Part shown: positions 46,301 through 49,300 of the stretch, piece by piece
Numbering within the stretch: the stretch's first letter is position 1
Layout of the letters: each line of letters starts with the position of its first letter
Assembly: GCF_029227855.1 (NCBI RefSeq)
Contig: NZ_CP074356.1
From: Escherichia coli
GTDB lineage: Bacteria; Pseudomonadota; Gammaproteobacteria; Enterobacterales; Enterobacteriaceae
DNA length: 64,000 bases
Strand: one strand, 5' to 3'
Program-made: the position numbers

Positions 46301-49300
46301 GAGGCCTGGCTGATTGTTTCCCCCGAAGTCACCAAGATCATGGCCAAAGAACAAACGGACCGTACGACATTAGATCTGTTCGCGCACGAGCGTCGACCGG
46401 GACGACCGAAAACTAATCCGCTTTCGCGCGATGAACAGCTGCGTATTAATAAACGCAACCAGCTAAAACGCGACAAAGTACGTGGCCTTAAGCGTGTCGA
46501 ACTGAAGCTGAACGCGGAAGCTGTCGAGGCGCTGAACGAGCTGGCGGAGTCGCGCAATATGAGCCGTAGCGAACTGATCGAAGAGATGTTAATGCAGCAA
46601 CTGGCGGCGCTGCGTAGTCAGGGCATCGTTTAAATTTCCACTTTCATGTAGCACAGTGTGCAGTCCTGCTCGTTTGCTGATTCCGCAAGACTGCCTGTTC
46701 TGCTATGATTGCCTTTATCCGTGGGCAATTTTCCACCCCCATTTCAATAAGTTTCAAGAGGTTATTTCACTCATGGCTATCACTGGCATCTTTTTCGGCA
46801 GCGACACCGGTAATACCGAAAATATCGCAAAAATGATTCAAAAACAGCTTGGTAAAGACGTTGCCGATGTCCATGACATTGCAAAAAGCAGCAAAGAAGA
46901 TCTGGAAGCTTATGACATTCTGCTGCTGGGCATCCCAACCTGGTATTACGGCGAAGCGCAGTGTGACTGGGATGACTTCTTCCCGACTCTCGAAGAGATT
47001 GATTTCAATGGCAAACTGGTTGCGCTGTTTGGCTGTGGCGACCAGGAAGATTACGCCGAATATTTCTGCGACGCCTTAGGCACCATCCGCGACATCATTG
47101 AACCGCGCGGTGCAACCATCGTTGGTCACTGGCCAACCGCGGGCTACCACTTCGAAGCGTCAAAAGGTCTGGCTGATGATGACCACTTTGTCGGTCTGGC
47201 TATCGACGAAGACCGTCAGCCGGAACTGACCGCTGAACGTGTAGAAAAATGGGTTAAACAGATTTCTGAAGAGTTGCATCTCGACGAAATTCTCAATGCC
47301 TGATGTGATGCGGCGTAGACTCATGTCTACGCCGTATTAATAGATAATGCCAATCAAAATAATTGCTACAAATTTGTAACTTTTGCTGTTGTACCTGTAC
47401 AATGTCCCAGTGTTCAAGTGGCCTTGCCGTTGTAAATGTAAGCAGTGCCACGTTTTTATTAACAATATTTGCCAGGGACTTGTGGTTTTCATTTAGGCGT
47501 GGCAATTCTATAATGATACGCATTATCTCAAGAGCAAATTCTGTCACTTCTCCTAATGAAGTGAACCGCTTAGTAACAGGACAGATTCCGCATGACTGAT
47601 AACAATACCGCCCTAAAGAAAGCTGGCCTGAAAGTAACACTTCCTCGCTTGAAAATCCTGGAAGTTCTTCAGGAGCCGGACAACCATCACGTCAGTGCGG
47701 AAGATTTATACAAACGTCTGATCGATATGGGTGAAGAAATTGGTCTGGCTACGGTATATCGCGTACTGAACCAGTTTGACGACGCTGGTATCGTCACCCG
47801 CCACAATTTTGAAGGCGGTAAATCCGTATTTGAACTGACACAGCAACATCACCACGATCACCTGATCTGCCTCGACTGCGGCAAGGTAATCGAATTTAGT
47901 GATGATTCCATCGAAGCGCGTCAGCGTGAAATTGCCGCAAAACATGGCATTCGCCTGACTAACCACAGTCTCTATCTTTACGGTCACTGTGCCGAAGGCG
48001 ATTGCCGCGAAGATGAGCACGCGCACGAAGGCAAATAAGCCAGCCGGAACGAGAAAAGCCAACCTGCGGGTTGGCTTTTTTATACACGGGAAATAATAAA
48101 TATCCTCCGGCATAGCCGGAGGTTTTTCAAATGCGCCTATAAGGCTCTCTTACCAGCCGCGCCCTAACAGGCGCACACGATCTGACATTTGCATCCAACT
48201 TCGTTACTTACGGCCCGTAAACGGGCTGCCCGGATAGGGAATCGATAACTGCTCTCCCATTTTATCCTCTTCAAGCTGGTGCTTTATGTAATCCTGTATC
48301 TTCGCCGTGTTCTTACCCACCGTATCGACGTAGTACCCTCTGCACCAGAACTCCCTGTTCCTGTATTTGAATTTCAAATCACCAAACTGCTCGTAAAGCA
48401 TCAGACTGCTTTTCCCTTTCAGATATCCCATAAAGCCGGATACGCTCATTTTGGGCGGGATCTCCACAAGCATATGGATATGATCTGCACAGCATTCAGC
48501 TTCCAGAATCCGTACACTTTTCCACTCACACAGCTTTCTCAAAATACTGCCTATTGCTCTACGCTTCTCTCTGTAGAACACCTGTCTTCGGTATTTTGGC
48601 GCAAAAACTATGTGATATTTACAGTTCCATCGGGTGTGCGCTAAGCTCTTTTCGTTCCCCATTGGGACCCCCTTTTGATTTCTTGTTTGACACTTGCAGT
48701 TGCCAGACCGCAAGGTGTTTTAACAAATCAAAAGGGGTTTTAATAACTGGCTTAAAGCTGAAAGCTTTCCGGAACCCCCAGCCTAGCTGGGGGTTTTCTG
48801 TGCACAAGAAAAGCGAGAGTTACAGCTCTCACTTATTTGTTATTACTGCGAATTTCCTGCCAGACCTTATCACAGTCGGCTTTTACCGCCTGATCATTTC
48901 CGGTTTGCGTTGCGCGCAGACACTGCTGATAATCCAGTACGCGGACACTTTCCTGATCGGCAAACTGCTGATGTTGTTTCTCTTTCTTCAGCACGTTTAA
49001 CACGCTCTGGCAGGCTTCAATTTTTTCTGGCGAACCTTGTGCGGTGTTGATACAGGCGCTGTATGCCTCTTTCAGACGGCTGTCTTCCTGTGGCGCGGTT
49101 GATTGCGCACAAGCCACCAGCCCCGATGCCATCATGGCGATGAGAATCAGTTTTTTCATAGCAAATTCCTCAAACGTGCGGCAGGCACAAAACCTGCCGC
49201 GTCGGGCATCAGAAGATGGTGAATGGTGCGATTACCATAAATTTCACGTCACGCTCATCCTGGAAGATGTTGCCGTAACCACCGCCCCAGCTTGGGATGT

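What the first reader, a model, noticed from the sequence alone, without database searches (positions are those of the whole stretch)
48095..48130. Second hairpin downstream of the fur terminator, at the predicted IS200 end
After the canonical fur terminator (48058-48082) there is a second strong hairpin, cctccggc-ata-gccggagg, followed by TTTTT (48104-48127). It lies about where the tnpA-distal end of the IS200-like element should be, so it may be the IS200 subterminal hairpin recognised by TnpA rather than a host terminator. Its position would define the insertion junction.
Basis: inference. Interest (0 to 1): 0.3.

Follow-up and report, generated by a model that had tools for sequence, protein, structure and literature searches.

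The report
Right-end hairpin of an IS200C insertion
The second hairpin after the fur gene is not a host signal but the standard right-end hairpin of a 711-base IS200C insertion sequence sitting between fur and chiQ, so the finding is correct but ordinary.

Summary
CCTCCGGC-ATA-GCCGGAGG lies at 48104-48122 and TTTTT at 48123-47. It folds far better than shuffled sequence.

It belongs to a 711-bp IS200C copy at 48095-48805, with tnpA on the minus strand. That copy is 100% identical to an annotated IS200C elsewhere in E. coli.

A strain with identical flanks, JNEC-KY178, and a K-12-like strain both have an empty fur-chiQ spacer. It holds both host terminators but not this hairpin. The insertion is exact, with no target duplication and a 2-nt boundary ambiguity. 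None of 5,426 complete E. coli genomes carries it at this site.

The hairpin foot lies 9 nt (possibly 8 or 7) inside the right tip. Across 58 diverse IS200-group right ends the same 8-bp stem with a 3-nt loop is kept with many compensatory changes. It is flanked by GAAAA on the 5' side and a T-rich 9-nt tail on the 3' side. One guide base co-varies with two tail bases, matching a base triplet solved for IS608.

Best reading: it is the subterminal hairpin that TnpA binds on single-stranded DNA, and probably also a bidirectional terminator. TnpA binding is inferred from related elements, not tested here.

This is already known biology and of low interest. In passing: IS200-group left ends almost always abut host terminators.

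The parts
48058..48082 (+). Host fur intrinsic terminator (AAAAGCCAACC-TGCG-GGTTGGCTTTT plus T run). [quoted passage not shown]
   Evidence: It folds. It is present unchanged in the empty sites of L001 and L084.
48095..48805 (-). Complete IS200C element, 711 bp, top (tnpA-sense) strand on the window's minus strand. The boundaries carry a 2-nt ambiguity: 48095-48805, 48096-48806 or 48097-48807.
   Evidence: Comparison with the empty sites gives an exact 711-bp insertion with no target duplication. The element has 0 mismatches to the IS200C copy in E. coli Esc27 and 2 mismatches to the PCN033 copy.
48095..48103 (-). Right-end tail, ATATTTATT on the top strand, between the hairpin foot and the IS tip. 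The probable cleavage tetranucleotide is TTAT, at tail positions +5 to +8 (48099 down to 48096).
   Evidence: The consensus tail AT-N-TTTATT recurs in 58 related right ends, and flanks diverge immediately after it. Tail +5 co-varies in Watson-Crick fashion with guide -3, and tail +1 matches guide -3. The geometry is that of the IS608 triplet T-4.A-34*A-10.
48104..48122 (-). Right-end subterminal hairpin, the object of the finding: CCTCCGGC-TAT-GCCGGAGG on the top strand.
   Evidence: Folding z-scores are. In 58 diverse elements 99.1% of cells are paired against 80.7% in shuffles. There are 72 double-change cells against 18.7, and slid controls collapse. RNAalifold predicts it independently.
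48123..48128 (-). Guide-like GAAAAA immediately 5' of the hairpin foot on the top strand.
   Evidence: It is nearly invariant across the family. The same GAAAA precedes the left-end hairpin. Position -3 co-varies with tail +5 and +1.
48135..48145 (-). Second conserved small stem-loop of the right end: GCCT-TAT-AGGC here, GGGC-TAT-GCCC in Firmicutes relatives.
   Evidence: In the RNAalifold consensus 3 of its 4 pairs show compensatory changes.
48159..48174 (-). Third conserved stem-loop of the right end: GCGCC-TGTTAG-GGCGC.
   Evidence: The RNAalifold consensus shows compensatory changes and many G-U pairs on the top strand, unlike the terminal hairpin.
48204..48662 (-). tnpA, a 152-aa Y1 HUH transposase with H61-I-H63 and Y125.
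   Evidence: Pfam Y1_Tnp, E = 3.8e-38. The protein is identical to WP_000526135.1, annotated as IS200C family transposase. Y125F is the catalytic-dead mutant used for IS200 in PMC4513863.
48672..48795 (-). IS200 left-end RNA region: the tnpA 5'UTR, with art200 antisense to it. Rfam family STnc490.
   Evidence: Rfam RF01405, 146 bits, E = 2.4e-31, full length.
48775..48793 (-). Left-end subterminal hairpin, CCCCCAGC-TAG-GCTGGGGG. On the top strand GAAAA precedes it (+ strand coordinates 48794-48798). Its foot is 12 nt from the left tip.
   Evidence: It corresponds to the published IS200 hairpin at nts 12-34, a bidirectional terminator (PMC4513863).
48806..48830 (-). Host chiQ terminator: hairpin at 48815-48830 plus the tract GCTTTTCTT at 48806-48814. 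This is the insertion target, and the IS left end abuts the last T.
   Evidence: It is present in both empty sites and is called terminator-like. Other IS200-group left ends abut terminators in the same way.

Best explanation
The hairpin is the right-end (RE) subterminal hairpin of an intact IS200C element of the IS200/IS605 family. The element inserted precisely between the convergent fur and chiQ terminators.

Shown here:
- The hairpin is part of the IS and not of the host.
- Its foot lies 9 nt (possibly 8 or 7) inside the right tip.
- The stem is conserved as a structure across the IS200 group.

Inferred by homology with IS608 and ISDra2:
- When the top strand (the window's minus strand) is single-stranded, for example on the lagging-strand template, the hairpin folds and one subunit of the TnpA dimer binds it.
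- The GAAAA just 5' of the foot acts as a guide. It pairs with the T-rich tetranucleotide near the tip (probably TTAT) to position the catalytic tyrosine.
- The left end works in the same way, using the host T tract beside it.

Secondary and also inferred: as RNA, the same hairpin probably ends the tnpA transcript on the minus strand. On the plus strand, followed by UUUUU, it probably stops any fur read-through from running antisense into tnpA.
For: - Empty sites: the identical-flank strain JNEC-KY178 and a K-12-like strain lack the hairpin and differ by an exact 711-bp insertion.
- The IS is 100% identical to an annotated IS200C, and other copies share sequence starting at 48095.
- TnpA matches Pfam Y1_Tnp at 3.8e-38 and has HUH and Y125.
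- In one search, 65 IS200-group elements from Proteobacteria and Firmicutes showed a perfect hairpin about 80 nt or about 106 nt after the tnpA stop, always 9 nt from where flanks diverge. Three Colibacter copies diverge right after the tail.
- Covariation was measured on an alignment chosen by position, not by pairing. It gave 99.1% paired against 80.7% shuffled, 72 double-change cells against 18.7, and a score of 0.446 against 0.103 (0 of 500 shuffles as high). Slid controls scored 0.062 or less.
- RNAalifold finds the hairpin independently.
- Almost no G-T wobble occurs in this stem (3 of 463 cells), whereas the inner RE hairpin has many. This fits a DNA-level constraint or a constraint on both strands.
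- Guide -3 pairs with tail +5 as A-T 42, G-C 7 and C-G 3. Guide -3 equals tail +1 as A/A 41 and G/G 8. This reproduces the IS608 RE triplet T-4.A-34*A-10, where the cleavage site lies 10 nt 3' of the foot (PMC3201880).
- The left and right hairpins share the frame GAAAA|CC-N-C-N-N-G-N with a 3-nt loop.
- A mini-IS200 carrying only bp 1-163 and bp 566-707 yielded transposition events (hops) when TnpA was supplied (PMC4513863).
Against: - No experiment in the literature I could search shows IS200 TnpA binding this hairpin. The structural work is on IS608 and ISDra2, whose hairpins are imperfect palindromes, whereas this one is perfect.
- Covariation alone cannot separate a DNA-hairpin role from an RNA-terminator role, and the hairpin is terminator-like on both strands.
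- The guide/tail covariation rests on few independent lineages: 7 G-C and 3 C-G sequences, which may form two clades.
- The exact cleavage position (+7, +8 or +9) cannot be resolved from sequence.
Confidence: 0.9

Rival explanations
1. The hairpin is a host element of the fur-chiQ spacer: a second fur terminator, the chiQ terminator, or a REP sequence.
For: It lies 22 nt after the fur terminator, is GC-rich and is followed by TTTTT. The scan calls it terminator-like.
Against: It is absent from the spacer in JNEC-KY178, whose flanks are 100% identical, and in a K-12-like strain. In one search no genome covers 80% or more of the query; 5,425 of 5,426 genomes have a match, and those with the locus show the short two-piece IS-free form. 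The 36-bp sequence travels with IS200, IS1541 or their remnants in E. coli, Yersinia and Salmonella plasmids. The true chiQ terminator is at 48806-48830.
Confidence: 0.01
2. The hairpin is only a transcription terminator of the IS. It would end tnpA mRNA and block inward transcription from the right flank, with no role in TnpA recognition.
For: It is terminator-like on both strands: TTTTTC follows on the + strand and ATATTTATTATTT on the - strand. The matching left-end hairpin of IS200 is documented as a bidirectional terminator (PMC4513863). Terminator-like sequences inside and upstream of IS200/IS605 elements are reported to be over-represented (bioRxiv 10.1101/2025.07.22.666184).
Against: A pure terminator does not need a fixed 9-nt distance to the element tip. 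It does not explain the Watson-Crick covariation between a base 5' of the stem and tail +5, or the identity match with tail +1, which mirrors the IS608 transpososome. G-U pairs are nearly absent, unlike the RNA-like inner hairpin. Family-wide, both ends of IS200/IS605 elements need a hairpin for transposition (PMC7290912). A dual role is likely; an exclusive terminator role is not.
Confidence: 0.08
3. The hairpin is a chance palindrome.
For: None beyond its short length.
Against: Folding z-scores are -4.3 to -4.6, with 0 of 200 shuffles as good. The expected number of such GC-rich hairpins is 0.7 per 64 kb. The structure is conserved with compensatory changes in 58 related elements.
Confidence: 0

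Closest known systems
IS200 / IS200C / IS1541 (IS200 group of the IS200/IS605 family)
   Same: The element is 711 bp with a single tnpA encoding a Y1 HUH transposase. The left-end hairpin and STnc490 region match published IS200. The sequence is 100% identical to an annotated IS200C copy. The right-end 36-mer is also found, essentially identical, in Yersinia and Salmonella plasmids.
   Different: Nothing structural differs. Only the location is particular: none of 5,426 complete E. coli genomes has an IS at fur-chiQ.
IS608 right-end imperfect palindrome (IPR) with guide GR and cleavage site CR
   Same: Both have a subterminal hairpin about 10 nt from the tip (9 nt here), a 4-nt guide directly 5' of the foot, and a cleavage tetranucleotide with T at -4 and A at -2 (TCAA and TTAC in IS608, probably TTAT here). 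The second guide base pairs with the first cleavage base and matches the base just 3' of the foot.
   Different: The IS200 hairpin is a perfect 8-bp palindrome with a 3-nt loop and no extrahelical base. The left and right stems differ in sequence. The left cleavage site is about 12-13 nt from the foot, against 19 nt in IS608. The target is a T run rather than TTAC. No tnpB is present.
IS200 left-end hairpin (nts 12-34), a bidirectional Rho-independent terminator
   Same: It has the same architecture (GAAAA, an 8-10 bp GC-rich stem, a 3-nt loop) and the same likely dual use as both a DNA site and an RNA terminator.
   Different: It sits at the other end of the element and has a different stem sequence (CCCCCAGC against CCTCCGGC). 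The right-end hairpin has no experimental terminator data that I could find.
REP sequences and their RAYT (TnpA-REP) nucleases
   Same: Both are GC-rich extragenic hairpins resembling IS200/IS605 subterminal hairpins (PMC3333891, abstract listed).
   Different: This hairpin is not extragenic host DNA. It is absent from the empty site and moves with the IS.
Group IIC introns (relevant only to the side observation on target choice)
   Same: They typically sit just downstream of intrinsic terminator motifs (PMC1702495, abstract listed). IS200-group left ends do the same.
   Different: The chemistry is unrelated: ribozyme-based retrohoming against HUH single-strand DNA transposition.

Membership tests
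IS200/IS605 family, IS200 group | Encodes a Y1 HUH transposase (TnpA) as its only gene | tested here: met
   Pfam Y1_Tnp at 3.8e-38 covers profile positions 2-121 of 121. HUH is H61-I-H63 and the catalytic tyrosine is Y125. No second long ORF with family support lies inside the 711 bp.
IS200/IS605 family, IS200 group | No target-site duplication; insertion without gain or loss of host bases | tested here: met
   The empty site in JNEC-KY178 has flanks 100% identical to the window. The window differs by exactly 711 bp, with only a 2-nt AA/TT assignment ambiguity. The K-12-like strain gives the same result.
IS200/IS605 family, IS200 group | No terminal inverted repeats | tested here: met
   The top strand starts GTGCACAGAAAA and ends GGATATTTATT. 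The tips are not reverse complements of each other.
IS200/IS605 family, IS200 group | Subterminal hairpins at both ends | tested here: met
   The left-end hairpin is at 48775-48793 and the right-end hairpin at 48104-48122. Both are conserved in relatives.
IS200/IS605 family, IS200 group | The left end always abuts a short element-specific target sequence | tested here: met
   T occupies 84-91% of flank positions -1, -2, -4 and -5 in 58 distinct left flanks. Here the flank is GCTTTTCTT.
IS200/IS605 family, IS200 group | Cleavage sites read by a guide sequence 5' of each hairpin foot | tested here: inconclusive
   Guide -3 against tail +5 gives A-T 42, G-C 7 and C-G 3. Guide -3 against tail +1 gives A/A 41 and G/G 8. 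This matches IS608 geometry, but few independent lineages vary.
IS200/IS605 family, IS200 group | TnpA binds the folded single-stranded ends and cleaves the top strand only | not testable with these tools
   This needs EMSA and cleavage assays. It is inferred from IS608 (PMC3201880).
IS200/IS605 family, IS200 group | Active (top) strand lies on the lagging-strand template | tested here: inconclusive
   The window's + strand has a GC skew of -0.023, and the window is reversed relative to K-12-like coordinates near 0.71 Mb. This places the top strand on the lagging-strand template, but it is a single copy and a weak skew.
IS200C (named isoform) | Near-identity to copies annotated as IS200C | tested here: met
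   0 of 711 mismatches to the Esc27 copy, whose TnpA WP_000526135.1 RefSeq annotates as IS200C family. The ISfinder reference itself was not available.
Host intrinsic terminator or REP of the fur-chiQ spacer | Present at the same position in strains without the IS | tested here: not met
   Absent in L084 and L001. In one search no genome covers 80% or more of the query; the listed fur-chiQ matches all show the short two-piece IS-free form.

The most novel reading that the evidence does not exclude
Two generalisations emerged from the comparison set and may not be fully described for the IS200 group.

(1) IS200-group elements insert immediately 3' of the T tract of host intrinsic terminators. 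Of 58 distinct left flanks, 35 pass a strict hairpin-plus-T-tail test, against 3.4% of random 45-mers, and many of the rest are visibly imperfect terminators. One possible reason is that a terminator (GC hairpin plus T-rich tail) mimics the element's own right end and is read by the left-end guide AAAA.

(2) The right-end guide and cleavage bases co-vary in a triplet geometry identical to that of IS608. This predicts cleavage after tail position +8 at a T-T-N-T site.

Probability: 0.45. Interest if true: 0.4.

Novelty: already known. Interest (0 to 1): 0.12.

Why it matters
For annotation, the result fixes the IS boundaries at 48095-48805, give or take 2 nt. It also shows that both host terminators, fur and chiQ, are intact, so the insertion is probably neutral for fur and chiPQ expression.

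The IS marks a very recent, lineage-specific event. A strain with identical flanks lacks it, and no complete E. coli genome in RefSeq has it at this site.

Beyond that, the hairpin is a textbook feature of IS200/IS605 elements. The side observations on terminator targeting and guide/tail triplet covariation could help predict IS200 insertion sites and cleavage points. They extend a known mechanism rather than reveal a new one.

Tried and rejected
- Rfam search of 47300-49300 at a permissive E-value. Only STnc490 matched, at the left end, plus a chance-level sX6 hit (15.9 bits against a 40-bit threshold) that spans the two hairpins. There is no curated family for the right-end hairpin.
- Host terminator or REP reading. 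Rejected by the empty sites.
- Resolving the exact tip (+7, +8 or +9) by comparing independent copies (E. coli L002 and L003, Colibacter L066-68) with empty sites. This is impossible in principle, because the IS 3' end (TT) repeats the last bases of the T-rich target.
- My first hairpin census required perfect pairing, which biases the paired fraction. I replaced it with an alignment selected by MAFFT position that includes imperfect and degenerate ends.
- Five loci (L029, L037, L039, L060, L065) were dropped because the ORF finder had mis-placed or truncated tnpA. L058 is a decayed end and was kept in the count.
- Literature searches for an explicit description of the IS200 right-end hairpin or of terminator targeting by IS200. 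I found only general family statements and one preprint. Barabas et al. 2008 (PMC2680152) is not held.
- The plasmid hits covering only 36 bp or 144 bp turned out to be truncated right-end remnants beside IS91 and IS3 transposase genes, not free-standing hairpins.
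Full report
**Observation.** The window reads fldA, then fur (47592-48038, + strand), then the fur terminator (48058-48082). Next comes CCTCCGGC-ATA-GCCGGAGG at 48104-48122, followed by TTTTT at 48123-48127. As single-stranded DNA the 41-nt stretch folds at about -10 kcal/mol on either strand. Shuffles give -2.9 +/- 1.6, and 0 of 200 fold as well. A consensus scan calls it terminator-like on both strands. GC-rich perfect 8-bp hairpins are expected about 0.7 times in 64 kb. The window has five such loci, two of which are the two ends of this one element.

**What surrounds it.** A 152-aa ORF on the minus strand (48204-48662) matches Pfam Y1_Tnp at E = 3.8e-38. It carries the HUH motif H61-I-H63 and Tyr125. 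Upstream of it, in the tnpA sense, Rfam finds a full-length STnc490 at 48672-48795 with 146 bits. This is the IS200 5'UTR/art200 region. It begins with the known left-end hairpin, CCCCCAGC-TAG-GCTGGGGG at 48775-48793. chiQ (48833-49159) and chiP follow on the minus strand.

**Is the hairpin host or IS?** A megablast of 47900-49000 against 5,426 complete E. coli genomes found no genome covering 80% or more of the query. Matches were either IS200C copies spanning query positions 196-913, or fur and chiQ flanks joined as two pieces totalling 390 bp, which is the IS-free state.
- The K-12-like strain PD007 has an 83-bp spacer...GGCTTTTTTATGCAAGGGAAATAAGAAAAGCGAGAG..., without the hairpin.
- E. coli JNEC-KY178 is a better comparator. 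It is identical to the window over 6,095 bp on the left and 1,493 bp on the right, yet its spacer reads ...TATACACGGGAAAT-AA-GAAAAGCGAGAG....

The window therefore differs by an exact 711-bp insertion, with no duplication and no loss. The 'AA' can be assigned to either side, so the IS is 48095-48805, 48096-48806 or 48097-48807. Independent IS200C copies share sequence from exactly 48095 (TAAATATCC...) to 48805 (...TGTGCAC). The Esc27 copy, annotated by RefSeq as IS200C, has 0 mismatches in 711.

**Is the hairpin a functional part of the element?** I fetched 80 loci encoding TnpA relatives (66-94% identity) from Proteobacteria and Firmicutes.
- In 65 elements (62 of these loci, the two other E. 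coli copies and the window) a perfect 8-bp (or longer) stem with a 3-nt loop lies about 80 nt, or in one subgroup about 106 nt, after the tnpA stop. It is preceded by GAAAA(A) and followed by a 9-nt T-rich tail with consensus AT-N-TTTATT.
- Most of the remaining loci are contig-truncated, or carry the same hairpin with a wobble pair or a 5-nt loop.
- Three copies in one Colibacter genome diverge immediately after the tail.

To avoid selecting for pairing, I aligned the regions downstream of tnpA with MAFFT and cut out the homologous columns.
- On these 58 distinct ends, 99.1% of cells pair against 80.7% in shuffles.
- 72 cells carry changes on both sides against 18.7.
- The covariation score is 0.446 against 0.103 (0 of 500 shuffles as high), and sliding the partner by 1-3 columns drops it to 0.062 or less.
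- Four of the eight pairs show compensatory changes, for example A-U 32, C-G 20, U-A 5 and G-C 1 at the third pair.

RNAalifold on the whole right end predicts the same hairpin. It also predicts two further conserved stem-loops, at window 48135-48145 and 48159-48174.

**DNA site or RNA terminator?** Both are plausible, but three features point to TnpA recognition.
1. The distance from the foot to the element tip is constant.
2. G-T/G-U wobble is almost absent in this stem (3 of 463 cells). The innermost right-end hairpin tolerates many G-U pairs.
3. The bases flanking the stem co-vary. The second base of the 4-nt stretch before the foot (guide -3) pairs with tail +5 as A-T 42, G-C 7 and C-G 3. 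It also equals tail +1 as A/A 41 and G/G 8. Whole haplotypes are AAAA/A/TTAT, AGAA/G/CT(T/A/G)T and ACAA/(A or T)/GTTC.

In IS608 the right cleavage site lies 10 nt 3' of the hairpin foot and is read by a 4-nt guide 5' of the foot. The second guide base (A-34) pairs with the first cleavage base (T-4) and forms a triplet with the base immediately 3' of the foot (A-10). T-4 and A-2 are the conserved cleavage-site bases (PMC3201880). The IS200-group pattern has the same geometry. It predicts a cleavage tetranucleotide T-T-A-T at tail +5 to +8 (window 48099 down to 48096), which is inside the 2-nt boundary ambiguity. The left end has the same layout: a T-rich host flank, about 12 nt, GAAAA, then a CC-N-C-N-N-G-N stem with loop TAG. 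Experimentally, a mini-IS200 carrying only bp 1-163 and bp 566-707 yielded transposition events when TnpA was supplied in trans, and Y125F was used as the catalytic-dead control (PMC4513863). I found no direct binding study of the IS200 right-end hairpin. That step is inferred.

**Likely secondary role.** On the plus strand the hairpin is followed by TTTTTC, which is the complement of the guide. It would stop residual fur read-through from running antisense into tnpA. On the minus strand it is followed by ATATTTATTATTT and could end the tnpA mRNA. The left-end hairpin of IS200 is documented as a bidirectional terminator, so a dual role at the right end is reasonable but untested.

**Target and consequences.** On the top strand the IS left end abuts GAGAG-CTGTAA-CTCTC-GCTTTTCTT, the chiQ terminator, which pre-exists in the empty sites. 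Both host terminators remain intact, so effects on fur and chiPQ are probably nil. The other two E. coli copies also follow terminators. Of 58 distinct left flanks across the family, 35 pass a strict test requiring a perfect stem of 5 bp or more plus a T-rich tail abutting the IS, against 55 of 1,620 random 45-mers. T occupies 84-91% of flank positions -1, -2, -4 and -5. A recent preprint reports terminator-like sequences enriched upstream of ISs, most strongly for IS200/IS605. The window's plus strand has a GC skew of -0.023, and the window is reversed relative to K-12 coordinates. This places the IS top strand on the lagging-strand template, as expected for this family, though one copy is weak evidence.

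**Comparison and verdict.** Every testable defining feature of the IS200/IS605 family is met:
- a Y1 HUH TnpA as the only gene;
- no inverted repeats;
- no target duplication;
- subterminal hairpins at both ends;
- a conserved left-flank target.

Guide-directed cleavage is supported but inconclusive, and TnpA binding is untestable here. Compared with IS608, the hairpins here are perfect palindromes, the left and right stems differ, the left spacing is shorter, and the target is a T run. The finding is correct and well placed, but it describes a known component of a known element. Interest is low. The only mildly new material is the family-wide evidence for terminator targeting and for an IS608-like guide/cleavage triplet in the IS200 group.

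Noticed in passing
window 48806-48830; loci L002-L083 (left flanks): IS200-group left ends almost always abut a host intrinsic terminator (GC hairpin plus T tract). Of 58 distinct flanks, 35 pass a strict test against 3.4% of random 45-mers, and many of the 'failures' are visibly imperfect terminators. The terminator plus T tail resembles the element's own right end (hairpin plus T-rich tail).
   Followed up: partly
window 48095-48128; alignment A1 columns 12-15 and 35-43: The second base of the guide-like AAAA co-varies in Watson-Crick fashion with tail +5 and by identity with tail +1. This reproduces the IS608 right-end base triplet and predicts cleavage after tail +8 at a TTAT site.
   Followed up: partly
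window 48135-48145 and 48159-48174: Two further stem-loops in the IS200 right end are conserved with compensatory changes across Proteobacteria and Firmicutes. The inner one tolerates many G-U pairs, which suggests an RNA-level role in the tnpA 3'UTR.
   Followed up: partly
L084 (E. coli JNEC-KY178, NZ_AP045174.1 3494000-3496500): This clinical isolate from Japan is 100% identical to the window over at least 7.6 kb of flanks but lacks the IS. The insertion is therefore very recent, and the strain is an ideal empty-site control.
   Followed up: yes
L085 (positions 901-936) and L086 (positions 901-1044): Truncated IS200 right-end remnants occur on E. coli plasmids. One is a 36-bp piece consisting of just the tip and hairpin, close upstream of an IS91 family transposase gene. 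The other is a 144-bp piece at 92% identity beside an IS3 family transposase gene on a pO157-type plasmid near ehxC.
   Followed up: partly
window 48672-48795 (- strand): A full-length Rfam STnc490 match (146 bits) covers the IS200 tnpA 5'UTR/art200 region. The copy therefore carries the complete known regulatory RNA module.
   Followed up: no
window 49178-49200: A GC-rich perfect hairpin, GCGGCAGG-CACAAAA-CCTGCCGC, lies in the short chiP-chiQ intergenic gap. It is not examined further here.
   Followed up: no
window 33892-33913 and 61181-61202: These are the other two GC-rich perfect 8-bp hairpins in the window. The first is followed by TTTTCTTT and is probably a terminator. Neither was examined.
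   Followed up: no
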